From a virus: a stretch of DNA of 64,000 nt. Positions 2,732 through 59,007 of this stretch are shown here, piece by piece (positions within the stretch are counted from its first letter, which is position 1; each line of letters starts with the position of its first letter). The notes beneath the pieces are model-generated. The model ran no database searches. It worked only from the letters and a program-made list of their open reading frames with translations, and was not told the origin of the DNA. Both the position numbers and the translations under genes were made by a program. The DNA is taken from positions 32,001 through 96,000 of IMG/VR virus record IMGVR_UViG_3300045988_176357. The stretch is one strand, 5' to 3'.

Positions 2732-3475
2732 ATGGACAAACAAGCATACTTCAAGATGATGGGCCTGGATAAGCAGGCGGCTATTGATCCTCAGACACTC
2801 AAGAACATCCTGCTCGGCGCCGGAGCTGGTCTCGGTACCTATGCACTGTCGAGCTTCCTTCCCGGAGCAAGACAGAACAGGCTTGCAAGGCTTCTTGCGT
2901 CCCTTGGTGTTGGTCTTGGTACAGGTTATTTCGGCAACGACATTCGGAACTGGTTCAGCAACAGACAAAGCAAGAAACCTGCAGCTCCTGCTGTATCCAA
3001 TGCCGCCGCGCAGGCTGCTATCCAGAATCTGAAGACGCCTGCTCAGGTAGCGAACCAGATATAGGCTGCAGGAAGGCAGACAGCCGAGGCGCCCTCTACA
3101 GAAACAACGGCACCCAAAGCTGCGGCTCCTGCTGCTGCGCCTACTAAGGATCCGGACTAGGCGAAGATAGACTAGGACGTAGCTGCAGGCATGCGTGAAT
3201 TTCAGCGAGATGTTGCAAAAAATCCTATAAGGTATATGAATGCCAGTCCTGAAAAAGCTAGACAGTATCTTTATAAGGCATATAAAGCAGATCGTGCTGC
3301 CAGGGGGGCTGCTAAGGGCTATCCATACAAAATTAACCCCATCGCATTAGGCAGACAGGTCTATATGTAGGATTTCTATCCTGAAGCAGACAAAGATGCA
3401 CACGAAGTTCTCTATGGACCTCTTGGCAGAGGTGTGGTAAATTTCATGCTCAACAGAGGCGGCCGGGACCTGTGA
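2732..3475 (+). CDS. Hypothetical membrane protein, paralogue of 2323-2724.
   Basis: Frame 2. Track ORF 2732-3064 continues through TAG 3062-3064 and three more TAGs to TGA 3473-3475. Confidence 0.4.
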
Positions 3476-3884: not shown

Positions 3885-6767
3885 ATGTTCACAAGTTACA
3901 AGCCATAGCAGTTCACCAGATACCCCACTACAATAGTTCCTGACTTAAGCGCAGGATTCGATACTCCGGAAGCCACAATATAGCTTCTTGGAGTTTCCGA
4001 CAGCGCATCCGTTACAGTCACTGCCACAGGGCCGAATACAGCCAAGAAGTTCCGGTTCAACTTCAAGCTTCCAAAGGGACATGATGGTGCCGCAGGAGGC
4101 TTTGCTTAGCCTGTGGCAACTGCGCAGCAACTTGCCTAGAACCAGTCGCCCACTGTTCAGGTTACTGCATCCGGACCATCTTCAGCTAAAGTGTTCGCTT
4201 TCGAATTCGGCATTCCAAAGGGTGCGACCGGACCTAAGGGATAGAAGGGCGATACAGGGCAGCAAGGTCCGAAGGGCGATACAGGAGATACAGGACCTCA
4301 GGGATAGACAGGCGCTACCGGAGCAACGGGTCCCGCCAATACGCTTACCATAGGCACAGTATCTTCAGGTGACACTGCCGCAGCTACCATTACCGGTACA
4401 GCTCCCAACCAGGTTCTGAATCTGACATTGCCTAAGGGTTAGCGTGGTGCCAGCTTCACTGTCGATGCTACCGGCTTATTGTCCTAGAGGCCCACGTACG
4501 ACGCACAGACCAAAGGGTTCTCGTTCCTGGCTACGGATACTGGTAACTTGTACATCAAGCAGTCGGACACATCCGGCGACTGGTCTTAGGCTATTCCTTT
4601 CAGAGGGGAAGACGGAGCTGCAGCCGGTTTCGGCATACCCGTTGCATCCGCTTCTTCATTATAGCCCGCTCAGAATCCTACTGTCACTGTAACAGCTACC
4701 GGTTAGAACACAGCAAAAGTGTTCAACTTTACATTCGGCATCCCCAAAGGCTAGAAGGGCGAAAAGGGAGATCCCGGACAGGCTGGTGCTCAGGGAGCTG
4801 ACGGTGCACAAGGCCCATAGGGACCCGCAGGTCCTGCTAACACGCTTACCATAGGCACCGTCTCTTCCGGCGGCACTGCCCAGGCTTCCATTACAGGTGA
4901 TGCGCCGAACCAGACACTCAATCTTGTACTGCCTAAAGGCGACAAGGGAGACCCGGGAGCAGACGGTGCACAAGGAGCGGACGGAATCACTCCTCATATA
5001 GACGACACCACAAAACACTGGTTCATAGGTGATACGGATACAGGTGTCAGCGCATAGGCTATTCCCGGCGTCACTACGTATCAGATTACAGAAGTCGATT
5101 CAGGCAACTATGCTACTATATACAGCAAGAATGTTCCTGTAGGGCTGAAGACAAACACAGGCACGTATTATCCTATATAGAAGAATACGGTTACTCTGAG
5201 TGACAGCAGCTGCAGGATACACCTTATACCTTATCTCAGTTACGAAGGCACTGATACATTCACTCCTCCGTGGACGTTGTATGTAACAGGTGCAGGCGCT
5301 GACGGGCAGCCAGGCAAGGACGGTGTGGCTGGCGGCTACGGCAATGTTCTCGGCGGGTTAGGTATGCGCATTGCAGCATACACCTCTGATTCAACTACAG
5401 TAACCCTTACGCTTGATGACAACTCAGATTCCACTTTCGACTGGAGTGTACTGCAGCCGTCATCAGTTGTCCGCATCAATAACACAGGCGGCGATCATCT
5501 CGTAGACAGCGACGCACAGTAGTAGCTGTACTACCTGAAGGGCTATATCAGCAGTGTCAACCAGGCAACTAAGAAAGTTGTCATCGATGGATGGTACTAC
5601 GCATAGTCTCAGTAGCGCAGAGAGATAAGTTCCAACATCAGTTCGTAGGTCCAGCAGGAACAGTCCTGGCTGTACATTACAGATGAAGCCAGACGCGATG
5701 CCGCTTTCAGTACAGGCGACAAGAACTTCGTCACAGGACACAGGGCCGTCGCAAACGGCTCATGGAACACTGTCGCAGGCGATATGGCACATGCCTCGGG
5801 AGGTCTCAACACAGTAGCAGGAGATCTCAGCCACGCTTTCGGTACAGCCAACAATGTACAAGCTGAAAGCGCTTTCGTAGCCGGTGTTGGTAACACAGTA
5901 AAAGAAACTGCAGGCCTGTCCATAGTTATTGGCGGCAGCAACGAAGTGCAGGCTTTCGGCTCCACCATTATTGGCAGCAATAATACAGGTCTTACCGGCA
6001 CGAACATGACTGCCATAGGTAACAGTAATGAAGGCTCCGGTACGCTGAGTACTGTTATCGGTAATAATAACACCATTAATGGGCAGTCAGGCAGAGTACT
6101 GGGCTTCGGCAACACCATGAACGCTCAGTTCGGTACACTGATAGGCATGCACGGAACGCTGGACAGCTATGCGTAGAACAGAGGAGCGTTCGCAGTTGCA
6201 ATAGGTTAGCTCGATCAGGCGCAGCTTCCTTTTATAGTGCGCGGATACAAAGCTGTACTGAATCCCCTGTTCAACTCAGACAGCACATCCTAGTCGCAAT
6301 TCCTTCTTCTGAACCCGAAGGACAGAACAGGCTAGCACAAGTACAACTCATAGCCTGGCTGCTCGGTGAGCTATATGGGACATCTCCTGGGCAACACATT
6401 CACTACGGACGCCACAGGTACCATAAGCCTGGATCATGACTTCTACAGCAGATGGGTGCTCACAGGAACAGGTGCCGTCACATTGCAGGCGGACAACTGG
6501 GTGGACGGAGATACAGGACACGTTGTAGTGGACACATCGAAGCAGACAATCAGCATTCCTGCTACATGGATCACAGGAGGCGCTGACATCGTGTCGACTC
6601 CTGGTATATATGTGCTGGAGCTGGTAAAAGTGAACTAGACCATATACTACAAAATAGTGTATCCTAATACAGAATCCTCAGGAAGCACCGGCACAGGGCT
6701 GGCGGTGGTCGTGAGTTCCACTCAGCCCTCGAACCCTGTAGACGGCATGATCTGGATACAGGAGTGA
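3885..6767 (+). CDS. Tail fibre protein with collagen-like Gly-X-Y segments and a C-terminal Hep/Hag-like beta-helix repeat region.
   Basis: Frame 0 links track ORFs 5277-5522, 5784-6176 and 6366-6638 (all frame 0) across about 35 TAGs. The first ATG follows a TGA at 3867-3869. TGA stop at 6765-6767. Contains GPKGDTGDTGPQG(TAG)TGATG and repeats GSNEVQAFGSTIIGSNNTGLTGTNMTAIGNSNEG. Confidence 0.7.
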
Positions 6768-29873: not shown

Positions 29874-29892
29874 GGTAATCTCAGGTCCGCAA

Positions 29893-29930
29893 AGCCCTCT
29901 TACTGCAACAGGTAAGGGGGCTTTTTTGTG
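29893..29930 (+). terminator. Rho-independent terminator.
   Basis: Hairpin aagccctcttac…gtaagggggctt followed by a T-run. Confidence 0.6.
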
Positions 29931-29987: not shown

Positions 29988-32900
29988 ATGGCTCCATTTA
30001 ATACCTCCGGCAAAGCTCCCAAGAACGCGCAAGACTGGGTCAGGTAGCTTCGCTTTTCCAACGATGTAAACATGAGCACTGTCGGTGTGGATACAGACAG
30101 AGTCACTCCTTAGCTCATGCTCGCTTCCAGCAAGAAACTTCTCGGAATCTCCAGAGGCTAGCAGGAAGGAGACGCGAAGGACTCGCTCAGATACCAGAAA
30201 GTGTTCGGACCTGTAGAGTACTTTGCGTAGAGAATACAGAAGGACGGAGGCAGCGTAGCCAGATCAATGCTGTGGAAGGCTACCAACAGAGGCAACGTCG
30301 ACTTCATCAACTCAGGCAGTCTGTAGCCGCACGTCAGTGCAGTGTTCCACCAGAGTAATCTTTCGCAGTTCGTCGACAACAGCACACCTCTCGACGGCAT
30401 CGACAACTCCATGAAGGTCACACGTGTCGGTGAGGGCGGTATATCCAGCGACTAGGTTGCGCCTATTGAGATGCGTCTTGTGCAGCCTTCTTACTATGGG
30501 TACATCGGTTCGGCTCGTACTGCATAGCGCTGTTACAGAGCCGATACACTCATTCTGACCAAGAAGGGCTGGAAGCCTGTAACACAGATGTCCATGGACG
30601 ACGAGTTCGCCACACTCATAGACGGCAGACCTGCATGGCACAGACCTATAGCGCTCAACAGCTACGACCATGATGGACCTATGTACTGTTACAACGGTCG
30701 CTACATCAAGTTCTCCGTCACTCCCAGTCACAGGATGTATGTAGCACAGGATAAAGACTACAGCATACAGTACATCGATCAGGTCTTCGGCAATACAGTG
30801 AAGGTTCTGTGCGCTGTCGACAAGGCGTCCAAAGTCGACTAGAAGCAGAGGTGGTTCTACTTGCCGCAGGTATAGTCCCCAGCAGCCAACTGCAAGAACA
30901 TATAGAAAGTGGACATTGTCGACTTCGCATAGTTCATGGGCTGGTATCTCAGCTAGGGCAGCCACGACTTACGCACAACCAAGCGAGGACAGAATTACAG
31001 AGTCCGTATTACACAGTCTCCTACAAAGAATCCTGAGCACTATGCACAGGTGCTGTAGCTTATGGACAGACTTCCGTTCACCTACAGCATAGACAGCAGA
31101 GACGGATCAGCCAATATTACAATCCTTCGGAAGCAGCTATACATGTATGTCAAACAGTTCGGACACAGTGAAGACAAGTTCATCCCTGAGTGGATCTTCC
31201 ATGCTCCAACTGCAGCGAGATGGGCATTCGTCGATGCGATCCTTAAGGGTGACGGCAAAGGCGCCAGAGATCTGTGCACCATTTCAAGCAGACTCGCAAA
31301 TGACTTTGCAAGGCTCATGTTCGAGCTCGGACAGTCTGTCAATATCATAAAAGAGCTGCAGAAATACGAGCACACAAAACGTCAGGTCAACCCCTAGGAA
31401 GATTTCCTGTACACAGTTACCTGGCACAGAACATTCTAGTCCACACTGCAAGGGCTTGGATAGAGATCAGGATATTATGTATAGGAATATAAGGGCAAGG
31501 TCTACTGTCCCACTGTCCCGGGAGGTCTCGTATATGTGAAGCTTCCGGGAGCTGCAAAAGGTTTCTGGTGCGGCAACAGCCCCGGCATCACAGGTTACAT
31601 GACAAAGAACGTCATGAAGGGTACAGACGGCAAGCTGTACCAGAACATGCTCAATGTTCGTACAGGTAAGATAGAGCCTGTTGACTCACAGAAAGCTGCA
31701 GCCTCGGTAGTCACAACCAACTAGTACATGAACACGGACGACGAATACGTGTACGCAATGGGCGGTCCCAGAGGCGTACGCATTGTCAAGAAGTCCGATA
31801 TCGACTACATACTTCCTCACTCGGATGATGCGTACTCAATGGCAGCCAACTACGTGCCCATGTATTCAGGCATCAAGTCGATGCGTCTGCTGATGGGCTG
31901 TTTGCATCCGGATACACCTGTGCTTGTTGTAGACAAAGACGGATACACAGACATCATCCCTGCAAAGAGAGTGGGACATGTCGGCACCATATATCTTGCA
32001 GGCTGTGACAGCAACGGCAGCGAAGCTATGTACAAGGTAAGGAACGTTGTTCCCAGAGTGCCTGACAAAAAGAGCAAGTTCCGCAAGATCATACTCCAGT
32101 CCGGCAGAACACTCATCACATCACCGTGCCACAAGTGGTACATATACAAAGACGACAAGTTCAACCTTGTTCCTGCTTCGTAGCTCAAACAGGGCATGCT
32201 TGTTCCAAGAACAGTGTTCCAGACTGTACCTGTAAGGAGTGCAACTGTAGCAGGCAAGCCTGTCACAAGAGAGATAGCAGTCCTTATGGGAAGACTTTGC
32301 GCCTCTTTGTAGGTAGTGGGAACAACTGTCAGGTTCTCTTTCGTTCGCGACAGGAACCCTGAAACAGACCAGAGACAGGACATCACAGACGCTCTTGCAC
32401 AGCTCGGTGTTGTGAACTACACGATATACACGCACAAATAGCAGACCTGGTGCAACATCAAGGACTGCGTCTTCAGGGACTGGATTGCGTAGAACATCGG
32501 TCGCGATTAGCAGCACAAACGCATACCGAAAAGCATGCTCTCACTCGACAGAGGCTATACGAGCATCTTCCTCGATTCCTTCTTCAAGACTCTGGATACA
32601 GTCGCATAGGACATCACAGGTGACAACTGGCTGCTCAGGCTTCCCAATCCCACTGTGCGCGACGGTGTTGCGTTCATGCTCACGAAGATCGACACCGATA
32701 CCAATTTCAGAGACGCAGTGCTTCCTGATCACAGAATCCACAGAGCACTGCACTTGCTTCCCATACAGAGAGGCAAGCACGATGTCATCCTGTAGCCCAT
32801 TGTCAGCATAGAGGAAATGCCGACACCTGGAATGATGATCGACATCGACTGTGACGACAACGTGTACGCAGTTGCGAACGGCATCATCACACATAACAGC

Positions 32901-35900
32901 AAGTACGGAACACAGGCAGTCCCTCTCCAGTAGCGTTAGGCTCCTTTTGTTCGCGCACTTGACTAGCAGTCCGGATAGGACATGCCTACGAGACTCGGAA
33001 GACTCCTCGGCACACAGTGGGCATAGAAGCCAGGTATGGTGAAAGCTGTTCGCAAGGACAGAATCGACATGCTGTACGACGACGGCACGAAGGGATCAGT
33101 GTATCTGTACGACAACTTCCCTGCCAATGCGAAGGGCTGGCTGACCAACTACGTGAAGGTCAAGGCCGGTGACAAGGTTGCTAAGGGGCAGCTGCTGGCG
33201 TCTTCCAACTACACTGACGACAACGGCGTTGCAGCTACAGGCAGGAACCTGCGTGTAGGCTACATGAGCTATCATGGCGCGACGTATGAGGATGCCTGTG
33301 CACTGTCGTAGTCGGCTGCGAAGAAGATGGGCTACACGATCATGTACAAGACAGGCATGGACAAGGACAAGTCCATCCGTACGTCCAAGCAGCTGTACAA
33401 CACCTGGAAGCCAGGACAGTACACAAAGTAGCAGCTGTAGAAGCTGGACGATTTCGGCGTGGTCAAGCCGGGCACTGTTTTGCAACCTGGCGACCCGATG
33501 ATCCTTGGTATCCGAACTACTGAGCCCTCGCCCGGCACACTTGGCAAGAGGATCCTCACCGATGTTACCTAGACATGGTAGCACAGCACACCGGGCACAG
33601 TCACGGACGTGACGAATACCAAGAGCGGCATCAAGGTGTACGCTACCGTCAGCAAGCCACTGTAGGTAGGTGACAAGATGTGCTACGATGAGTAGACGTA
33701 GGTACTGACAGCTGATGGCTGGAAGCGTTTTGCTCAACTCACATTGCATGACAAAGTGTACACGCTCGATCCTGATTCCGATACCATATAGCTGCAGCAC
33801 CCTGTGATGGTACACAGATACAGACATAAGGATCCGATGTACAAGCTCTGCACAAGAGACATCGACCTTATGGTCACTCCCAACCACAGGAACCTTGTCA
33901 GGATACATGCCGCACAGGGACCTGCCAAGTATCGGCTGGTGCAGGCAAGTGAGCATTATGGCGAGCTGCTGTAGATGCGTACAGGTGCGGAAGGTGCTCG
34001 CCGGGATGTGCCCGTGAACTACGCTGCGGACGACGTGTAGCAGTGGGTCGCCTACGACGGCTACGTGTACTGTGCCACTGTGTAGAAGTACCATACGCTG
34101 TACGTGCGCAGGAACGGCAAGGCAGTATGGTCAGGCAACTCTGGCTTCTAGGGCTCCAAAGGCACGGTCGCACAGGTCATCCCTGACGACAAGATGCCGA
34201 GGGACTCGCAGGGCAGGCCGCTGTAGCTGCTGTTCGACCCGCTTGGAATCATCAGTCGCACAAATCCCTCGCAGCTCATGCAGGCAGGACTCGGCAAAGT
34301 GGCAGCCAAGACAGGCAAGCCCATAGTGATGCCTCAGTTCATGCCCAAGGGACAATCAAGGCTCAAGTATGTCAAGGACCTCATGAAGAAGAACAATGTT
34401 CCATGGTCCTAGGACGTGTACGATCCGTAGTCAGGGCGCACAATCAAGAACGTCTTCACAGGCGTCGCCTACTACATGCCTCTCAAGCACCTTGCATAGT
34501 CCAAGATGAGTGCACGAGGCACTGAAGGGTACGATGCATCAGGTGTGCCGAAGTCCGGTGGTGAGCATGGAAGCAAGAAAATAGGACAGCTGTAGAGCAG
34601 CGCTCTGGTCGGACACGACGCCTTCGACTTCCTCACTCAGGACGCCAAGCTCATACGCGGCCAGTCCAACGCCGACTTCTGGCGCTCCATTCGCACAGGC
34701 CAGATACCTGTCGTCCCGGGCTAGCCTCTCGTGCACAAGAAGTTCTTCGCGCACCTGCAGGCTTCTGGACTCAACGTCCGCAGATCCAAGTAGGGCGTCT
34801 CTCTGTTCGCACTCTCCACAAAGGACGTGGACGACATGGCAGGCAACAGATAGCTCAAGTCAACAGACACATACGAGCAGAAGAACTTCAGACCCATCGA
34901 CGGCGGTCTCTTCGGACAGGACATCTTCGGACCCGACGGCATGAACTGGGGCTACATTCAGCTCGACAGCCCTCTCCCGAACCCCGTCATGTAGTAGCCG
35001 CTTGCGCGTCTCCTGCGCATGTCCGACAAGGACTTCCAGGCAGTCGCTCAGGGCAGAGCCACGGTCAATGGCATCTCCAACGCAACATAGATGAAACAGG
35101 CGCTGGCAAAGATCGACCTGTAGAAGGAAGCCCAGCAGTCGCTCGTATAGCTCAAGGATGCACGGCCCTCAAAGAAGGACGCTGCGCTGAAGCGCTATGT
35201 AGCCATTGCCAAGATGCGCGACAACGGTGTTCCTCCTCAGGACTACATGCTGGACAGAATACCGGTGCTGCCTCCCAAGTTCCGCCCGATCACACAGCAC
35301 GGCGGTCTCACAATGGTAGCAGACAGCAACTACCTGTATGCGCAGCTGCTGAACGCAAGGGACGACCTGCGCTAGGCACAGAAAGAAGGACTGCCCGCTG
35401 AGTACATCACCGACGCGAACGCGAAGCTTTACACGAAGTGGAAGGAACTGGTGGGGCTGTACGACCCATAGGACGTGAAGCTGAAGAACAAGTCGGTGAA
35501 GGGCCTGCTGAAGTGGGCCCTCGGCACGAGTCCCAAGCGCTCGGCGTTCGCCACGAAGGTGCTGGGGTCGACGGTGGACACTGTGGGACGCGGAGTCATT
35601 GTTCCCAGTACTAAATTACGATTGAATGAGATCGGGATGCCGGTGGACATGGCGTGGGATGTATATGCGCCTTTTGTGGTGCGCAAGCTGGTGCAGCGGA
35701 ACTACACACCTGTGGACGCCATGAAGATGGTCAAGTAGCGTGTGCCTGCGGCGTTCGATGCACTGCAGCAGGCGGTGAGCGAGCGGCCTGTGGTCATGAA
35801 CCGCGCTCCCTCGCTGCACAAGCTCAGTCTCATGGGCTTCAATGTGAGGCTGACAAGCGGCAAAGCTATCAAGATCAACCCCTCAATTGTTGTCCCGTAC

Positions 35901-37889
35901 GGAGCTGACTTTGACGGAGACTCATGTAAGTCGTTGATAATCATATGGTTACAACAAAAATAGGGCTCTCAGGTAGCAAAAAAGATATATAGAGGCAGTT
36001 AGAATTGGCACTTGACAAATGCGAAATCTGGTGTATATTACCTTCATAATGACAAGGAGCCGCAGCTCCAGAACCAACAATAGAAAGAAGGTAATACAAT
36101 GATTTCCAAAAATGAAAAAGTCTCAGTGATGCCGTATCTTATGGAACTCTCTGAAGTTCCTGTCATCAAAGGATCGGAAGTTGCCAAGTCGCCTACTGTC
36201 ACCGAATGGGATGTTGAGGAAGGCACTTTGGTGAACACCATAGACCCTGCTACAGGTGAGATTGTGTTTGCTCCCATGACAAAGGTATCCAGGCACACAA
36301 ACCTGAAAATGTTCGACGTGAAGTTCGGTATCAGCGGAGCCTATGAGCACATGTCCACAGTGTCTGAGGATCACAGCTTGATCACATATAACAGCACATC
36401 TATGGAACTGGAAAAGACCAGACCTGAAGAAGCCCTCGGCGCATGTGTTCCGATGACCAGATTCAACTGGTGCAACAAGGTTAACGATGAGCAGGGATGT
36501 GCAACTCATATCAACTTCCCGTCTGGTAACTACTCACTGTCCTACGATATGGGTGTCTTCTTTGGCCTCATGGTCGGTGACGGTTGGGTAGCCAGCACAA
36601 GTGCCAACACAAAGGTGGCCCATATCGCTTGCTGCGAAGAGTCCCTGCAGAACTACATATTGGAACTGACAAAGAGCGCGTCTATGCCGTTCACCAAACA
36701 GGCGGCACTATTCAGCTATGCAGCGGATGAACAGAGATTCAGCCAGCGAGACAAGCAGAGATTCACTATCTACATGGATAACGAAGATAAGGCGTTCCTT
36801 GAGAAGCTCATAGGTCATGGTGCCGAGAACAAACATATCCCCTATAAGAGCTTCATGGGAAGCATAGCACACATGATTGGCGTCCTTATGGGTCTGCTTG
36901 CTACAGATGGCGCGGTATCACATACGCCTGGAAGCGGAAACAGAAAGTCAGCTAAGAAAGCTATCATTTACCACACTGTAAGTCCTACACTGAGAGATGG
37001 AGTGCAGGATTTGGCATGCAGGCTTGGTATAAAGACAAGTGTCACGACATACACTGGCACATCTTCTGGAAACACAGCATATGCAATTGTGTTCTCACTT
37101 GAGGACTTTGCTAGACTGTACGATAAGAATCCGACAAGATGTGTGATACCTGTCAGCTATAAGCAGGAAGCTCTTATGCGTATCGTTAACGATGTGCATG
37201 AGAACAATAAAGCGTCGTGCAAGACCACCGTCACTTCTTATGATATAGTGCCGTTCCCTCGCGGACTGTTCTGCGAGTTCAGCTGGGCAAAGATTGTCGA
37301 CATCTCAAGAGACAGTGTCATAGCTGCACGTACCAAAGGCTTCATAAAGAGAAGCGTCGCAAAGCGTATTGCAGATGCTCTTGAGCGTCGCGACTGGTCT
37401 ATCTACAAAGATCCTGCATACCTCAAGAAAGCTGACCAGACGCATCGCACTCCCGCCCAGGCCAAGGCACTTGTGGACAAGTGGATCGCCATGGTACGCA
37501 ACGACGACATCGGCTGGGAAGTCGTGACAGACGTGACTCCGTCCACATGCACTGAGGGATGGGACTGCACAGTGCCTGGACCGTACACCTTCTCGCTCAG
37601 CACAGGAACTATTGTGCAGGACACCGTGAACCTGCACGTGCCTGTTTCACAGGCCGGTATCCGCGACGTGCGCTAGAAGATGATGCCCGAGCACAATCTG
37701 ATCTCAGCGAGAAAGCGCAAGATATTATACGCACCGTAGAAAGCTTATACGCAGGGACTCTATGTAGCCACAAGAATGGGTGAGGCCAAGGACGTGAAGA
37801 CCTTCAACACGCTGCAGGAAGCCAAAGACGCCTACAGAAAAGGCCTCATCGACGTGGATACACCGATACTGATCAAGGAGAAGCGATGA
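29988..37889 (+). CDS. Multisubunit RNA polymerase: beta subunit C-terminal two-thirds fused in frame to beta' N-terminal half, one 2633-codon ORF interrupted by four inteins.
   Basis: ATG 29988, frame 0. Every frame-0 track fragment (30588, 31062, 31536, 31728, 33036, 35475, 35742, 36099) falls in this frame. Codon-checked at 32160-33060, 33680-34150 and 34680-34980. Beta motifs recovered: HSDDAYSMAANYVPMYSG…SKYGTQAVPLQQRQ (≈HDDANRALMGANMQRQAVP), GRNLRVGYMSYHGATYEDACALS, KPL(TAG)VGDKM…SGFQGSKG (≈QPGDKMAGRHGNKG). Beta' motifs recovered: FRPIDGGLFGQDIFGP, NRAPSLHKLS, YGADFDGD…LHVPVS. A roughly 35-aa linker joins beta and beta' with no TGA or TAA. TGA 37887-37889. Confidence 0.75.
30531..31577 (+). 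mobile_element. Intein 1 in RNAP beta, with a LAGLIDADG-like homing-endonuclease segment.
   Basis: Starts AQR|CYRADTLILTKKGWKP (block A). Block B FSVTPSHRMYV. Contains WAFVDAILKGDGKG. Ends …GFWCGN|SPGITGY. Confidence 0.6.
31899..32897 (+). mobile_element. Intein 2 in RNAP beta, inserted within the GANMQRQAVP motif.
   Basis: …SMRLLMG|CLHPDTPVLVVDKDG… Block B LITSPCHKWYIY. Ends …VYAVANGIITHN|SKYGTQAVP (canonical HN+Ser). Confidence 0.7.
33681..34139 (+). mobile_element. Intein 3, a mini-intein in RNAP beta, inserted in GDKM|AGRHGNKG.
   Basis: VGDKM|CYDEQTQVLTADGWKRF… Block B MVTPNHRNLV. Ends …AVWSGN|SGFQGSKG. Codon positions verified. Confidence 0.65.
35922..37622 (+). mobile_element. Intein-like insertion 4 in beta', directly after the catalytic DFDGD motif: Hint block B plus two LAGLIDADG motifs, with non-canonical junctions.
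   Basis: GADFDGD|SCKSL…; block B HMSTVSEDHSLITY; FFGLMVGDGWV and LMGLLATDGAV; …TGTIVQD|TVNLHVPVS. Alignment with E. coli DFDGDQMAVHVP places the exteins at DFDGD / TVNLHVP. The 35940-36098 segment is AT-rich and contains only TAG stops. Confidence 0.5.
36012..36039 (+). promoter_or_regulatory. Sigma70-like promoter (TTGACA-N16-TATATT) plus a downstream GAAGG RBS, inside the intein-4 region and upstream of the internal ATG at 36099.
   Basis: ttgacaaatgcgaaatctggtgtatatt read directly from the sequence. May be coincidental. Confidence 0.25.
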
Positions 37890-41832: not shown

Positions 41833-42998
41833 TGGAAGTGTCCAGAAACATGAAGATTCTCGCAAAGCTTGCAAGCATAAATAAAGAAGCGCAGGGCAAT
41901 CCGATGCTCGTGTCTTCCCTTATCGGTGCCGGTGCTGGAGGACTTGCAGGAGACCTCACTTCACAGCTGCTGTGGAAGAAGCCGACTAAGACGCAGCGGA
42001 TTCTGTCTGCATTGGTCGGCGCCGGTCTTGGTGCAGGAACTGGCGCTGCTGTTACAGGTTCATTCGGACACAAAGCTGTATAGAATATTCCTGCGAGATT
42101 GCAGTCTATGTATTAGAATGCTATCGGCACAGTGTCAGGCAAATTGCCCTCCAAAGAGGACTTTGCATCCATGTCTCCTACAGCGAAAGCTATGTATGGC
42201 AGCACCAATACAGGAGATAAAGCTGCTGACAGACTAGGATCTGTTGTCAACACTCTGAAAAAGTCAGTAGTCGGATAGAATGACAAAGGCAGCGGTGTTA
42301 TAATTCCAGCACAGTTGGCAGCAGGAGGTATTGGCGGAGTCTTCGGCTGGAAAGGTGCTGTGTAGGCCCTTAACAGGCAGGGCAGACGAATACAGCTTAT
42401 AAAGGCTCTGGAAGATAAAGCAGGTGCTAATCCTGCGTTGTGGCGAGCTGCAGATATCTTGAAGATTTTCAAAATAAAAGGCGGCAATCCTGTTACTAAA
42501 CTTATCGATTAGATACAGGAAAGCTCTAAGCTTACAACGTCACCTCGTGCATATAAAAATAACCTTGCCAGTATAGTTCGGAATTTCCATAAGAGGAATG
42601 AAGCCAGTAAGGCTGCAGGTATGGGAGCTATAAGTGATACAATCCGGCAACGGTATTATGGAAAGTACAGGAACAAAGATCTTGATGCCTTCAGGCTGAA
42701 GGGCAGACAGAATGCCACAGCATTAGAGACCTTGTTCGGTTTGTCGAAACGCAGAGCCGGGCAGGTATTCGACAACACAGGTATCAAGACCGGTATATCC
42801 GCTGACGAAGCTGCCAAACTCCGGAATATGGTGACAAATCGTCCTCTTGGAAAGATGAAAGGTGCGGCTGGACTGCTGGCAGGTATCTTGTCTGCTGCTG
42901 CGTCGGCAGGTGGAGCCGGATATATAGGCAACGCACTTGCAGGTAACAATGCACGGTATCAGCAGGCGCTGACAAACCTGTAGAATGCTTATAAGTAA
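41832..42998 (+). CDS. Gly-rich membrane protein.
   Basis: ATG 41832 (TGATG overlap). Frame 0 links track ORFs 41829-42083 and 42621-42983. TAA 42996-42998. Confidence 0.4.
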
Positions 42999-43009
42999 CA
43001 GGTGCTGAA

Positions 43010-45319
43010 TTGGCTGTCACCACATTAGGCAGATAGGTAATCAAACAAGCGCTTCCTTAGAAGTACAGGAGCTTCGTTGACTAGCCCCTCACAAAGGCTC
43101 GCCAATAGAAGCTCACTACGCAGCTTGCCAAGGACAATCCATAGGCTTACATAGACATCCTGCAGAAGCTGAATGCCATCGCGTAGTCGACTGTATCTAC
43201 GTACGGCAAAGACACTACCATCACTCTGGATGACATAGATGCTGGAGAGAATGTGCGCAAGATGCATGCTAAGCTCCAGTAGCTGATACGTACTGTTGTG
43301 AACAGGAAAGATCTCACTCCGTAGCAGAAGTAGCAGAAGGTCATCTAGCTGGGTTACAAGTACACTGCACTGATGAAGGACCTTGGATTAAAGGATGCTC
43401 AGTAGCGTCGTACAGGTATTGCAAATCAGATTGCATCTGGATCCCGTGGCAACCCTGTACAGCTTATGCAGCTTCTTGTCGGCGACATGCAGATGCGTGA
43501 TGCCGCCAACAGGGACATCCCTTATCTTGCTACTATGCCGTATGTGGACGGTGATTCGCCTATGTCCTACTGGGCATCGAGCATGTCCGGTAGAAAATCA
43601 ACTTACGATACGCAGGCTGCTACAGGCATGGCCGGTTACCTGAACAAACAGGCAACCAATGTTATTCAGGCAACACCTATAGCTATGCGAGACTGCGGCA
43701 CTACCAATACAGGTGTGCCGGTATCAGCTACAGATCCTTAGAATGTAGGCTCCATACTGCTGCGCCCATGGAAGAACCATCCTGCAGGAACACCTGTCAC
43801 GTAGGAGATGCTGGACTAGGCTTAGTAGGGTGACGAGATTGTGATCCGCAGCCCGAACACATGCAAGGCTCACAACGGTGTGTGCGCTATGTGCTCAGGC
43901 ATCCAGGAAAACGGCAAGCTGCCTGCTGTAGGAAGCTACGTGGCACTGAATGCCATGAAGTCCTTCATCTAGCCGCTTACGCAGGCCGGTGTAAGCTGTC
44001 TGCATCCTGACACAAAGGTAAGTCTGGCTGAAGGTGGATATAAAAGAATAGCAGATATACAGATAGGCGATACTGTAATAGGTTGCGACATAGCAGGTAC
44101 AACTACACCTGTAAAGGTCACCAATGTATTCCATAATGGAATTCAGCCTGTATACAGAACTGTATCTGTTACATAGTCTGGTAAGCACTTGTAGCTCTTA
44201 TCCACACTTACACATAAATGCCTTATGCTGATCTAGGATGCACAAGTTCCAGCACTGCTGCCTATAGGGACACAGGCTAAGAAACGCTATATAGTACTGT
44301 CAGATAGGTCTGAGTAGCAAAAAGCTTAGATAATACAGCAGACATTCGTAGGCGATATATAGACCATAGATATCTAGGTTGACCATCCTGATCATCTGTT
44401 CCAACTTGTTGATTATCAAGTGGTAGCAAATTCGAAGCATGGTTCTGGTATGGGCGGCAAAAAGAGCTAGGACCCAGACGGCTAGGACCAGCCTACAGGG
44501 TTCGACTCCATAGCGCGCATGCTCCTTGTGCCCTCTACATTCCCTGGTGGCGCAGTGCTCTCTCAGGTCGATGGTCGCGTGTCATCTGTACGTCCTGCTC
44601 CGCAGGGAGGCAACTACATTACAGTCGGCACCAATACGGTATATGCGCCACGCGTACGTACAGTAACAGTAAAGCCCGGCGACATCGTGTAGGCTGGAGA
44701 CACCCTTACCAATGGCGTGCCTAATCCCATGTAGGTAGTCAAATACAAAGGTATCGGCTAGGGCAGACATTACTTCACGAACAAGCTTTTCGAGCTGCTT
44801 CCGAAATCCGGCGCAGGCACAGCAAGACGTAATGTGTAGCAGTTCGCCCGCGCCCTCATCAACAAGGTTCGCATAACATCCGACCAGGGTTTCGGCGGCT
44901 ATTATCCTGGCGACATTGCAGATTACGACGATATAGCGTAGAAATGGAGACCCAGAGAGGACAGCAAGATGCTGAACCTCAAGGAAGCCACAGGAAAGTA
45001 CCTGTAGGAGCCAGCACTGTATTACAGCATAGGAACAAGAATAACACCCAAGGTAGCCAAGAAACTGCAACAGTACGGTTACCAGCAGGTGAATACCAAT
45101 TAGAATCCTCCGCCGTTCTAGGCGAAGTTCGTAAGCTCCAAAGCGTTCTCTACTACGTAGAGGCGCTGGTTGCCCAGACTTAACGGAGAACGGCTTAAAG
45201 AGGCTATCTTCGACGCTGCAAGAACTGGAATAACTGACAGTTATGACAGCCCTTCATTCGTCGACAAGCTTATCATAGGCCCCTATAATCCGGCAAACAT
45301 TAAACCAGCAGGAATATGA
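43010..45319 (+). CDS. Multisubunit RNA polymerase beta' subunit, C-terminal fragment, carrying one mini-intein.
   Basis: Frame 2 opens after TAA 42992-42994; start codon uncertain (TTG 43010, or ATG 43262 which lies inside homologous sequence). …SGSRGNPVQLMQLLVGDMQM…YWASSMSGRKSTYDTQAATGMAGYLNKQATNVIQATPIAMRDCGT aligns with beta' …[20 protein letters not shown]…[45 protein letters not shown]. C-terminal GDTLTNGVPNPMQVVKYKGIGQGRHYFTNKLFEL… is also conserved. TGA 45317-45319. Confidence 0.7.
43997..44431 (+). mobile_element. Intein 5, a mini-intein in the beta' trigger-loop region.
   Basis: SFI(TAG)PLTQAGVS|CLHPDTKVSLAEGGYKRIADIQIGDTVIG… ends …YQVVAN|SKHGSGMGG. Confidence 0.6.
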
Positions 45320-58931: not shown

Positions 58932-59007
58932 TGGTTGCGGGGACAGGATTCGAACCTGCATATCCAAGCTTATGAGGCTTGTCGGCAACCGTTGCCACCA
59001 CCCCGCC
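58932..59007 (-). tRNA. tRNA with anticodon CAU (Met, or Ile2 if lysidine-modified).
   Basis: Reverse-complement sequence read directly: GGCGGGGTGGTGGCAACGGTTGCCGACAAGCCTCATAAGCTTGGATATGCAGGTTCGAATCCTGTCCCCGCAACCA. Anticodon stem CAAGC/GCTTG, loop CTCATAA. T-loop GGTTCGAATCC. Acceptor GCGGGG/CCCCGC with a possible 1•72 mismatch. The D-arm register is slightly irregular. Confidence 0.6.

What the first reader, a model, noticed from the sequence alone, without database searches (positions are those of the whole stretch)
35922..37640. Fourth RNAP insertion (after DFDGD) has non-canonical splice junctions and an internal promoter- and RBS-like segment
Alignment with E. coli DFDGDQMAVHVP places the exteins at DFDGD | TVNLHVP. 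The insertion would therefore begin with Ser-Cys (SCKSL…) and end with …TGTIVQD, i.e. a C-terminal Asp followed by +1 Thr, rather than the usual …HN + Ser/Cys seen in inteins 2 and 6. The alternative reading is Asn followed by Leu, which cannot splice canonically. The first roughly 180 nt (35940-36098) are AT-rich and carry TTGACA-N16-TATATT plus a GAAGG RBS just before the ATG at 36099. That ATG opens the Hint plus double-LAGLIDADG ORF. This looks like a free-standing homing-endonuclease gene that has become fused in frame, readable only because TAG is sense. It may also be an intein capable of independent expression of its endonuclease.
Basis: partly seen in the sequence, partly recalled or inferred. 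Interest (0 to 1): 0.7.

Follow-up and report, generated by a model that had tools for sequence, protein, structure and literature searches.

The report
Intein carrying its own promoter and start
The insertion is a genuine self-splicing protein element (an intein with a homing endonuclease) in the catalytic loop of a phage RNA polymerase, and it carries a conserved built-in promoter, ribosome-binding site and start codon that probably let the endonuclease be made separately from the giant host protein.

Summary
A 1701-nt in-frame insertion (35922-37622) splits DFDGD|TVNLHVP in a TAG-recoded 2657-codon RNAP beta-beta' ORF.

It is an intein, not an intron. Its predicted fold matches intein endonucleases. 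Position 1 is Ser/Thr/Cys and the last residue is Asp in all relatives. The +1 residue is Thr/Ser in every intein allele but Gln/Thr in empty alleles. C-terminal Asp is a known variant.

The new part is the 59-codon linker after the first beta-strand:
- It has no TAA/TGA in frame in 14 of 17 lineages, and its protein sequence is unconstrained.
- Its DNA conserves TTGAC(A/T)-N16-18-TATAnT in 13 of 17 lineages, in different reading frames.
- A Shine-Dalgarno motif and an ATG are present in all 17.
- The ORF after the ATG has no TAG in any recoded lineage, against about 45% TAG among Gln codons in exteins, inteins 1-3 and the linker.

Two relatives have stop codons in the linker and are truly split, with a 20-34 aa N-fragment and an endonuclease-bearing C-fragment.

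Best reading: the intein splices in cis and also expresses its endonuclease independently under the standard code. The architecture resembles a precursor of atypically split inteins. No expression data exist.

The parts
35907..35921 (+). End of the N-extein: the catalytic DFDGD motif of RNAP beta'. The -1 residue is Asp.
   Evidence: Translation. Aligns with uninterrupted DFDGD-(T/Q)(V/A)N-H-P in L001-L004 and L008.
35922..37622 (+). Whole intein, 567 codons, from Ser1 to Asp567.
   Evidence: In-frame insertion at the same site in more than 40 relatives. AlphaFold models match the TliVMA, PI-PfuI and PI-SceI inteins.
35922..35957 (+). N-terminal splicing strand (block A / N1): SCKSLIIIWLQQ.
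   Evidence: Position 1 is S/T/C, position 8 is I/V and position 10 is L/V/I in all relatives. The equivalent segment of P0008 is predicted as a beta-strand. It aligns with block A of linker-less relatives such as P0160.
35958..36098 (+). In-frame linker, AT-rich, protein sequence unconstrained. In-frame TAG codons at 35961, 36000 and 36081.
   Evidence: 37% GC. 0 in-frame TAA/TGA against 3 and 4 in the other frames. Across 14 lineages, 0 stops in 645 in-frame codons against 100 in 1262 out-of-frame codons. Predicted disordered. Substitutions against near relatives are 3 synonymous: 1 nonsynonymous codon (L023) and 0: 2 (L031).
36012..36039 (+). Sigma-70-type promoter-like element: TTGACA, 16 nt, TATATT.
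   Evidence: Matches 11 of 12 positions and is the best site in 29-39 kb. Shuffle P = 0.0035. Scores at least 10/12 in 13 of 17 lineages, in two reading-frame registers. The only invariant alignment columns fall in the two hexamers and the ATG.
36087..36091 (+). Shine-Dalgarno-like GAAGG, 7 nt upstream of the ATG.
   Evidence: A purine-rich AAGGAG/GAAAGG-type motif lies within about 4-11 nt upstream of the internal ATG in 17 of 17 lineages. The same type of motif precedes bona fide gene starts in the window, including the RNAP start at 29988.
36099..37676 (+). Internal ORF readable in the standard code, 525 aa. It runs from Met60 of the intein, through the rest of the Hint domain and the LAGLIDADG endonuclease, plus 17 aa of C-extein, and ends at the TAG at 37674.
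   Evidence: 0 TAG in 508 intein codons, against 59 in 2002 in the N-extein region. The gene is called as P0001, which has 130 member sequences. A Met sits at a fixed distance upstream of the ExP/DFP motif in 28 of 31 linker-bearing representatives.
36354..36383 (+). Block B region STVSEDHSLI. SEDH takes the place of TxxH.
   Evidence: S89, D91 and H92 (ORF numbering) are invariant in alignment A3.
36552..36587 (+). First LAGLIDADG motif, GVFFGLMVGDGW.
   Evidence: G152, G156, G160, G162 and W163 are invariant and D161 is nearly invariant. Pfam LAGLIDADG_3 and Hom_end hit the second LAGLIDADG domain.
36873..36914 (+). Second LAGLIDADG motif, IGVLMGLLATDGAV.
   Evidence: T269, D270 and G271 are invariant. 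Pfam PF14528 E = 4.6e-9.
37554..37622 (+). Blocks F and G: EGWDCTVPGPYTFSLSTGTIVQD, ending in the C-terminal Asp.
   Evidence: W488, D489, T491-P495, V506, Q507 and D508 are invariant. The terminal Asp is present in every relative examined.
37623..37625 (+). The +1 Thr, the C-extein nucleophile.
   Evidence: Thr or Ser in all intein-bearing alleles. Gln or Thr in empty alleles.

Best explanation
The insertion is a class-1 LAGLIDADG intein (Ser1 ... Gln-Asp567 | Thr+1) in the Mg-binding loop of a phage RNAP beta-beta' fusion protein.

Shown:
- The boundaries, the intein fold and the conserved junction residues.
- Purifying selection on the intein protein.
- An in-frame but protein-unconstrained linker inserted after the first beta-strand, at the place where atypically split inteins are broken.
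- DNA-level conservation of a promoter-like element, a Shine-Dalgarno motif and an ATG inside that linker.
- Complete avoidance of TAG downstream of that ATG in TAG-recoded phages.

Inferred:
1. When TAG is decoded as Gln, the 2657-codon precursor is read through the linker. The intein then splices in cis and restores DFDGD-TVNLHVP, using Asp cyclisation at step 3.
2. A transcript starting near 36046, together with the internal SD and ATG, gives a separate 525-aa product. This is the endonuclease with most of the Hint domain. It needs no suppressor tRNA, so it can be made early by the host machinery to drive homing in mixed infections.
3. The same cassette pre-adapts the element for splitting. 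Stop codons in the linker give the truly split relatives L009 and L040.
For: Intein identity:
- AlphaFold of the window ORF (pLDDT 82, pTM 0.80) matches the TliVMA intein at E = 3.8e-15, plus PI-PfuI and PI-SceI, over about 510 columns. The contiguous relative P0008 gives the same result.
- The distant family member P0019 hits TIGR01445 and PF14890.
- Residue 1 is S/T/C, the last residue is D and +1 is T/S in all relatives. Empty alleles have Q or T at +1.
- Against L023 and L031, IntC shows 26 synonymous to 1-2 nonsynonymous codon changes.
- There is no Rfam match.

Cis reading:
- Linker length is a multiple of 3 in 17 of 17 lineages.
- In-frame TAA/TGA are 0 in 645 codons against 100 in 1262 out of frame (P = 4e-19).

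Expression cassette:
- The promoter-like site matches 11 of 12 positions.
- It scores at least 10/12 in 13 of 17 lineages, with the -35 in two codon registers.
- Invariant DNA columns occur only in the hexamers and the ATG.
- A 20%-identical intein in the same phage has the same TTGACA-17-TATATTacct.
- An SD motif is present in 17 of 17 lineages and is the same type as at real gene starts.
- A Met lies 16-25 residues upstream of the ExP/DFP motif in 28 of 31 linker-bearing representatives. It is absent in linker-less ones.

Standard-code ORF:
- 0 TAG among 81 Gln codons in IntC of 7 recoded lineages.
- The comparison values are 38 of 85 in exteins, 23 of 52 in inteins 1-3 and 3 of 10 in the linker.
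- This is the longest TAG-free run in any real ORF of the window.

Split relatives:
- L009/L010 and L040 each have 5 stops in the gap.

Chemistry precedent: PMC4031507. Split-site precedent: PMC10189870.
Against: - There are no transcript, translation or splicing data. The host is unknown.
- A TTGACA/TATAAT promoter would not work in a Bacteroidota host. The abundant SD motifs argue against such a host.
- The 64-kb window has only three other 11/12 promoter-like sites. Use of sigma-70-type promoters by this phage is therefore not established.
- 4 of 17 lineages score 9/12 or lower.
- Pfam and NCBIfam do not detect Hint in the window's own sequence.
- The AlphaFold output does not show whether the N-strand docks into the Hint fold.
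- The absence of TAG could partly reflect transfer from standard-code phages. The TAG-containing linker of the same element argues against this.
- The 5'-UTR fold is unremarkable (z = -1.28).
Confidence: 0.6

Rival explanations
1. It is an ordinary cis-splicing intein. The promoter, SD and ATG cassette is a non-functional relic, for example of an earlier split state or of an invading endonuclease gene. The endonuclease is made only as part of the precursor. The absence of TAG reflects recent transfer from standard-code phages.
For: No expression data exist. 4 of 17 lineages lack a good promoter match. Linker-less relatives exist. The intein is clearly mobile: three different inteins occupy this site in one phage species.
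Against: A relic would decay. Instead the hexamers and the ATG are the only invariant DNA columns in an otherwise 43%-identical linker, and the -35 is kept in different codon registers. The Met is kept at a fixed distance in representatives below 50% identity. The linker of the same mobile element does carry TAGs, while the ORF after the ATG has none in 7 lineages.
Confidence: 0.22
2. In this phage the element works as a split intein. Translation of the N-part ends at a linker TAG, giving an N-fragment of 13 aa. The C-part starts at Met60, and the two halves trans-splice.
For: Relatives L009 and L040 are truly split at this place. An N-fragment of 13-34 aa is in the range of known atypically split inteins, which go down to 15 aa (PMC10189870). 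The promoter, SD and ATG are exactly what a C-half gene needs.
Against: TAG must be read as sense 59 times before the linker for any N-extein to be made. The linker has no in-frame TAA or TGA, although the other frames have 3-4. Standard-code relatives keep the linker fully open.
Confidence: 0.1
3. No ligation occurs. The intein only cleaves at its C-terminus or not at all, and beta' works as two non-covalent pieces or with the insert retained.
For: Phage RNAPs with split beta' subunits exist (background knowledge). The penultimate His and terminal Asn are missing.
Against: The Ser/Thr/Cys1 and Thr/Ser+1 nucleophiles, block B His and block F Asp are conserved across the family. The break would lie inside the metal-binding loop.
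Confidence: 0.04
4. The insertion is removed at the RNA level, as a group I or group II intron carrying an endonuclease ORF.
For: The 5' part is AT-rich and carries stop codons under the standard code. Introns are common in phage genes.
Against: No Rfam family matches at E <= 1 in 29-39 kb. The insertion is always in frame and a multiple of 3. The Hint fold and the protein-level junction residues are conserved.
Confidence: 0.01

Closest known systems
Class-1 LAGLIDADG inteins with atypical C-terminal residues, such as inteins ending in Asp or Gln (Amitai et al. 2004, as reviewed in PMC4031507)
   Same: In-frame Hint plus LAGLIDADG element. Nucleophiles at positions 1 and +1. A C-terminal Asp able to cyclise. 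No penultimate His.
   Different: It carries a 59-codon linker after block A that holds a promoter-like site, an SD motif and an ATG. Its host site is the DFDGD loop of a phage beta-beta' RNAP, with Asp at -1.
Atypically split inteins, such as PolB16 OarG with a 15-aa IntN and Ser1/Ser+1 (PMC10189870). AceL-TerL, GOS-TerL and VidaL are cited from memory.
   Same: The break or linker position lies just after the first strand. Residue 1 is Ser or Thr. They come from phage or gut metagenomes. Relatives L009 and L040 are truly split, with N-fragments of 20 and 34 aa.
   Different: The window's copy is contiguous. The C-part keeps a full LAGLIDADG endonuclease, whereas the characterised atypically split inteins are mini-inteins. 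Contiguous and split forms coexist within one family.
[quoted passage not shown] 2009, PMC2677866)
   Same: Phage genes. The endonuclease is expressed from its own control elements inside an intein-bearing gene. They were proposed as intermediates in the origin of split inteins.
   Different: There the endonuclease is a separate ORF at the canonical endonuclease insertion point, and the host gene is broken. Here the endonuclease domain is in frame at its usual place. The control elements sit in a translated linker near the N-terminus.
Inteins with out-of-frame or antisense endonuclease ORFs (bioRxiv 10.1101/2025.01.02.630785 and 10.64898/2026.09.14.751524)
   Same: The endonuclease is translated independently of the intein-extein precursor.
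   Different: Those use a different frame or strand. Here the same frame is used twice: once by read-through and once by internal initiation.
Phage group I intron endonucleases with their own promoters, such as T4 td / I-TevI (background knowledge)
   Same: A selfish endonuclease timed independently of its host gene by internal expression signals.
   Different: Those are removed at the RNA level. This one is removed at the protein level.

Membership tests
Class-1 intein with LAGLIDADG endonuclease | In-frame insertion at a conserved site of a host protein, absent from some homologs | tested here: met
   1701 nt between DFDGD and TVNLHVP. L001-L004 and L008 are uninterrupted.
Class-1 intein with LAGLIDADG endonuclease | Cys/Ser/Thr at intein position 1 and at +1 | tested here: met
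   Ser1 and Thr+1 in the window. S/T/C and T/S in all relatives. Empty alleles have Q or T at +1.
Class-1 intein with LAGLIDADG endonuclease | C-terminal His-Asn | tested here: not met
   The intein ends Gln-Asp. Asp is invariant in the family. Asp and Gln termini are documented functional variants (PMC4031507).
Class-1 intein with LAGLIDADG endonuclease | Block B TxxH and block F Asp | tested here: met
   SEDH, with the Ser, Asp and His invariant in alignment A3. In GWD, Trp and Asp are invariant and Gly nearly so. Some distant relatives (P0018, L006, L007) lack the His.
Class-1 intein with LAGLIDADG endonuclease | Hint fold | tested here: met
   Foldseek against 7qss gives E = 3.8e-15, and against 1dq3 6.6e-14, over about 510 columns. 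Sequence profiles (Pfam, NCBIfam) do not detect Hint in the window sequence. They do detect it in the relative P0019.
Class-1 intein with LAGLIDADG endonuclease | Two LAGLIDADG motifs with catalytic acidic residues | tested here: met
   GDG and TDG motifs, with TDG invariant and the Asp of GDG nearly invariant. PF14528 E = 4.6e-9.
Class-1 intein with LAGLIDADG endonuclease | Protein splicing and site-specific DNA cleavage | not testable with these tools
   Needs expression of a cassette and a cleavage assay.
Naturally (atypically) split intein | N- and C-parts encoded by separate ORFs | tested here: not met
   The window linker is open when TAG is sense and has no TAA or TGA. The feature is met in relatives L009/L010 and L040.
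Naturally (atypically) split intein | Break close to the N-terminus, with an IntN of about 15-40 aa | tested here: met
   The linker starts after about 12 residues. The split relatives have N-fragments of 20 and 34 aa.
Fractured gene (Dassa 2009) | Free-standing endonuclease ORF lying between the two intein halves | tested here: not met
   The endonuclease domain is in frame between blocks B and F. There is no separate ORF.
Group I or group II intron | Match to the intron RNA structure | tested here: not met
   No Rfam match at E <= 1.
Sigma-70-type promoter | -35 and -10 hexamers with a 16-18 nt spacer | tested here: met
   11 of 12 positions match. The site is conserved in relatives.
Sigma-70-type promoter | Transcription initiation | not testable with these tools
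   No transcript data. The host is unknown.

The most novel reading that the evidence does not exclude
This is a dual-mode, genetic-code-aware selfish element.
- A host-type promoter, SD and ATG sit inside a translated linker.
- They let the homing endonuclease be made early under the standard code, from a strictly TAG-free ORF.
- The same sequence is read through later, under TAG = Gln, as part of an RNAP precursor that splices in cis.
- This linker cassette would be the evolutionary route by which atypically split inteins arise. The family contains linker-less, linker-bearing contiguous and truly split members.
Probability: 0.45. Interest if true: 0.78.

Novelty: new variant of a known kind. 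Interest (0 to 1): 0.66.

Why it matters
Inteins are normally thought to express their endonuclease only as part of the host protein. Here comparative evidence points to a conserved internal transcription and translation unit inside a contiguous intein.

Three consequences follow if this is right.
- It would explain how an endonuclease buried at residue 2000 of a late, recoded giant protein can still act in time for homing.
- It gives a natural series from linker-less to linker-bearing to split inteins. That series makes the origin of atypically split inteins testable. Those inteins are valued as protein-engineering tools.
- It shows a selfish element tracking a phage's stop-codon recoding, with TAG tolerated in the linker and excluded from the ORF.

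The Ser1 / Asp-terminal / Thr+1, Cys-independent chemistry next to an Asp at -1, and the split relatives with N-fragments of 20-34 aa, may also be useful reagents.

Tried and rejected
- **RNA intron.** Rfam at E <= 1 over 29-39 kb found nothing. Rejected.
- **Known phage.** blastn against 50,697 phage records gave no match.
- **Sequence profiles for Hint.** Pfam and NCBIfam gave no Hint hit for the window sequence. Structure prediction was needed.
- **Duplicated block A.** I considered that the residues after the internal Met (MISKNEKVSV; L006 MITEDTRVVVF) are a second block A that replaces the N-strand in the stand-alone product. AlphaFold of the stand-alone ORF leaves residues 1-9 disordered with no strand in 1-20. 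Linker-less relatives align the N-strand, not the post-Met residues, with block A. The idea is not supported.
- **Translational hairpin.** A hairpin sequestering the SD, as in fractured genes, was not found. The fold of 36046-36125 has z = -1.28 and leaves the SD unpaired.
- **Other TAG-free ORFs.** They are not endonucleases. Two are TAG-poor structural-like proteins and the minus-strand ones are spurious.
- **Searches that added little.** An IMG/VR search with the intein alone found no relative. A search with the L007 intein returned only itself.
Full report
**Context.** With TAG read as sense, the window holds one ORF from 29916 (ATG at 29988) to 37889. It encodes a fused RNAP beta-beta' protein. 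The ORF contains 64 in-frame TAGs. Three canonical inteins (C...HN/GN|S) lie upstream of the finding. Relatives in IMG/VR and in human-gut metagenomes are phages of about 165-190 kb. The window shows no blastn similarity to any of 50,697 phage records.

**Observation.**
- DFDGD is at 35907-35921.
- The insertion spans 35922-37622, which is 567 codons. It begins Ser-Cys-Lys, ends Ile-Val-Gln-Asp, and is followed by Thr.
- The first 177 nt are 37% GC.
- TTGACA-N16-TATATT lies at 36012-36039. It matches 11 of 12 positions, is the only site above 9/12 in 10 kb, and has a shuffle P of 0.0035.
- GAAGG lies at 36087-36091 and the ATG at 36099.
- The three in-frame stops of the linker are all TAG (35961, 36000, 36081).

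**It is an intein with these boundaries.**
- Five homologous RNAPs are uninterrupted and read DFD(G/S)D-(T/Q)(V/A)N-H-P. The spacing therefore leaves no room for C...HN|S junctions.
- More than 40 relatives carry an insertion at exactly this point. In all of them residue 1 is Ser, Thr or Cys, the last residue is Asp, and +1 is Thr or Ser. Empty alleles have Gln or Thr at +1. This is the pattern expected if +1 is a splicing nucleophile.
- Block B (SEDH), block F (GWD) and both LAGLIDADG motifs are conserved, mostly invariant.
- Sequence profiles miss the Hint domain in the window's own sequence.
- AlphaFold models do show it. The window ORF (pLDDT 82, pTM 0.80) and the contiguous relative P0008 both match intein endonucleases over their whole length: TliVMA 7qss at E = 3.8e-15, plus PI-PfuI and PI-SceI.
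- The distant member P0019 hits TIGR01445 and PF14890.
- Against near relatives, the intein ORF shows 26 synonymous to 1-2 nonsynonymous codon changes. The protein is therefore under selection.
- No RNA family matches.
- Ser1, Thr+1 and a C-terminal Asp without a penultimate His are unusual. They are still documented variants of class-1 splicing (PMC4031507).

**The linker.** I compared 17 lineages: the window, L005-L007, L009, L011, L012, L014, L015, L028, L029 and L037-L042.
- A short strand follows residue 1, with I/V at position 8 and L/V/I at position 10. A variable segment of 37-69 codons comes next, then a Met.
- Linker-less relatives such as P0160 (CIFDRITIIKEDSSIHTIHIKDFP) show that the linker is an insertion in the turn after the first strand pair.
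- In the AlphaFold model of P0008 the strand is predicted and the linker is disordered.
- The linker is always a multiple of 3 in length.
- In 14 lineages it has no TAA or TGA in 645 in-frame codons, against 100 in 1262 out-of-frame codons (P = 4e-19).
- Its protein sequence is hardly conserved. Against near relatives it shows 3 synonymous: 1 nonsynonymous codon change (L023) and 0: 2 (L031).
- Read-through of the linker is therefore selected. This argues for cis-splicing.

**The expression cassette is conserved at the DNA level.**
- A TTGAC(A/T)-N16-18-TATAnT site scoring at least 10 of 12 is present in 13 of 17 linkers. Eight of them score 11 of 12.
- It lies 25-103 nt upstream of the Met.
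- The -35 hexamer falls in two different codon registers. For example, it encodes HLTN in the window, GIDN in L039 and GLDF in L015. The -10 encodes GVYY in the window and CILS in L037. The conservation is therefore not conservation of protein.
- In an alignment of 11 linkers with 43% mean identity, the only invariant columns are in the two hexamers and the ATG.
- In 17 of 17 lineages a purine-rich SD (GAAGG, AAGGAG, AAAGGAGG and similar) lies within about 4-11 nt upstream of the ATG. The same motif type precedes real gene starts in the window, including the RNAP start itself.
- Among representatives below 50% identity, 28 of 31 linker-bearing inteins have a Met 16-25 residues (most often 18) before the conserved ExP/DFP motif. 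Linker-less ones do not.
- L044 is the same phage species, with flanks 95-98% identical, but it carries a different intein that is about 20% identical. It has the same TTGACA-17-TATATTacct and SD.

**TAG avoidance.**
- In the window, the region upstream of the intein has 59 TAGs in 2002 codons. The linker has 3 in 59, the ORF after the ATG has 0 in 508, and the C-extein has 2 in 88 (Fisher P = 2e-6).
- TAG encodes 45% of Gln in the exteins and 44% in inteins 1-3.
- It encodes 0 of 81 Gln codons in the post-ATG ORF of seven recoded lineages that differ by up to 50%.
- The resulting 530-codon TAG-free run is the longest in any real ORF of the window.
- The linker belongs to the same mobile element and does carry TAGs. 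Recent transfer alone therefore does not explain the contrast. Selection for translation under the standard code does.
- Under that code the ORF ends at the TAG at 37674, giving the 525-aa protein that gene callers report (P0001).

**Split relatives.** L009/L010 (P0015) and L040 (P0017) are standard-code phages. In both, the upstream gene ends 20 or 34 residues after DFDGD. The 207-nt gap has five in-frame stops. It holds TTGACA-16-TATAGT or TTGACT-16-TATAAT plus an SD, and the downstream gene starts at the conserved Met. These are natural atypically split inteins whose C-fragment retains the endonuclease. They sit among contiguous relatives in sequence similarity.

**Mechanism proposed.** The intein splices in cis from the recoded precursor. 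In addition, an internal transcription and translation unit yields a stand-alone endonuclease product. I put the confidence in the combined statement at 0.6. The intein identity and its boundaries alone stand at about 0.9.

**Rivals.**
- The cassette is a relic (0.22).
- The element is functionally split in this phage (0.10).
- Cleavage occurs without ligation (0.04).
- The insertion is an RNA intron (0.01).

**Caveats.**
- There are no expression data and the host is unknown.
- There are few other sigma-70-like sites in the window.
- Four lineages lack a good promoter match.
- The output available does not show whether the N-strand docks.
- The 5'-UTR fold is unremarkable.

**Comparison with what is known.**
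- The element is a member of the class-1 LAGLIDADG inteins, with a variant C-terminus.
- It resembles atypically split inteins in where it is interrupted (PMC10189870).
- It resembles fractured genes in bringing control elements into an intein-bearing gene (PMC2677866).
- It resembles inteins with out-of-frame or antisense endonuclease ORFs in separating endonuclease expression from the precursor (bioRxiv 10.1101/2025.01.02.630785 and 10.64898/2026.09.14.751524).
- I found no description of a same-frame, translated linker that carries a promoter, an SD and a start codon, nor of TAG avoidance by an intein ORF.
- The superfamily is large. 485 representative clusters score E <= 1e-30, and most are embedded in 2000-3700 aa proteins.

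Noticed in passing
L006 and L007 at 6655-6672; L044 at 3457-3474; P0021, P0022, P0027, P0034, P0119, P0194: A sister intein family at the same site has Cys1 and ends (W/Y)D|T. In these members the -1 codon is Asn (DFDGN|C or DYDGN|C), so canonical splicing would leave DFDGN-TVN and the third catalytic Asp would be lost. L044 is the same phage species as the window, with AAC in place of GAC. Other Cys1 members keep Asp at -1. This is unexplained.
   Followed up: partly
window 35880-35921 compared with L015-L021 and L044: Near-identical phage genomes carry three different inteins at this one site: the window type, the P0006/L015 type and the C1 type of L044. Some L015-type copies also differ in the adjacent extein (PFGMDYDGD against PYGADFDGD), which looks like co-conversion during homing.
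   Followed up: partly
L012 3851-4000: P0019's locus has a TGA at intein codon 5 (DFDGD|CVSA-TGA). The frame nevertheless stays open for 45 more AT-rich codons up to the Met. It could be a recent nonsense mutation, a read-through site or a 4-aa N-fragment.
   Followed up: no
L040 1294-1500: In this split relative the first in-frame stop (TAA) lies inside the perfect -10 box TATAAT (gc TAT AAT read as CTA TAA T). Improving the promoter may itself have split the gene.
   Followed up: partly
L015, L017, L019, L020 and L027 compared with L016, L018 and L021, linker codon about 27: TAG and CAG alternate at the same codon in otherwise near-identical sequences. This is direct support for TAG = Gln in this phage group.
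   Followed up: yes
L041 1363-1500: The linker of this recoded relative has 6 TAGs in 46 codons (13%), far above the extein density. The ORF after the ATG has none.
   Followed up: no
window 36099-37622 compared with the exteins: Gln content, counting CAG, CAA and TAG, is 2.2% in the intein ORF and 6.9% in the exteins. The recoded host genes look Gln-enriched through TAG.
   Followed up: partly
window 29891-29924: A strong terminator-like hairpin (14 pairs followed by a T-run) lies about 60 nt upstream of the RNAP start codon at 29988.
   Followed up: no
window 42995-45319: The downstream beta' C-terminal ORF carries another canonical intein (..GVS|CLHPDTKV...VVAN|SKHG). It contains many TAG codons, unlike the intein studied here.
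   Followed up: no
window 36056-36069: A small palindromic hairpin, GGAGCCGCAGCTCC, lies between the -10 box and the SD. The fold of the putative 5' UTR is not significantly stable (z = -1.28).
   Followed up: yes
window 58932-59007: The only tRNA gene in the 64 kb is a tRNA-Met on the minus strand. No suppressor tRNA (CUA anticodon) lies in this window.
   Followed up: no
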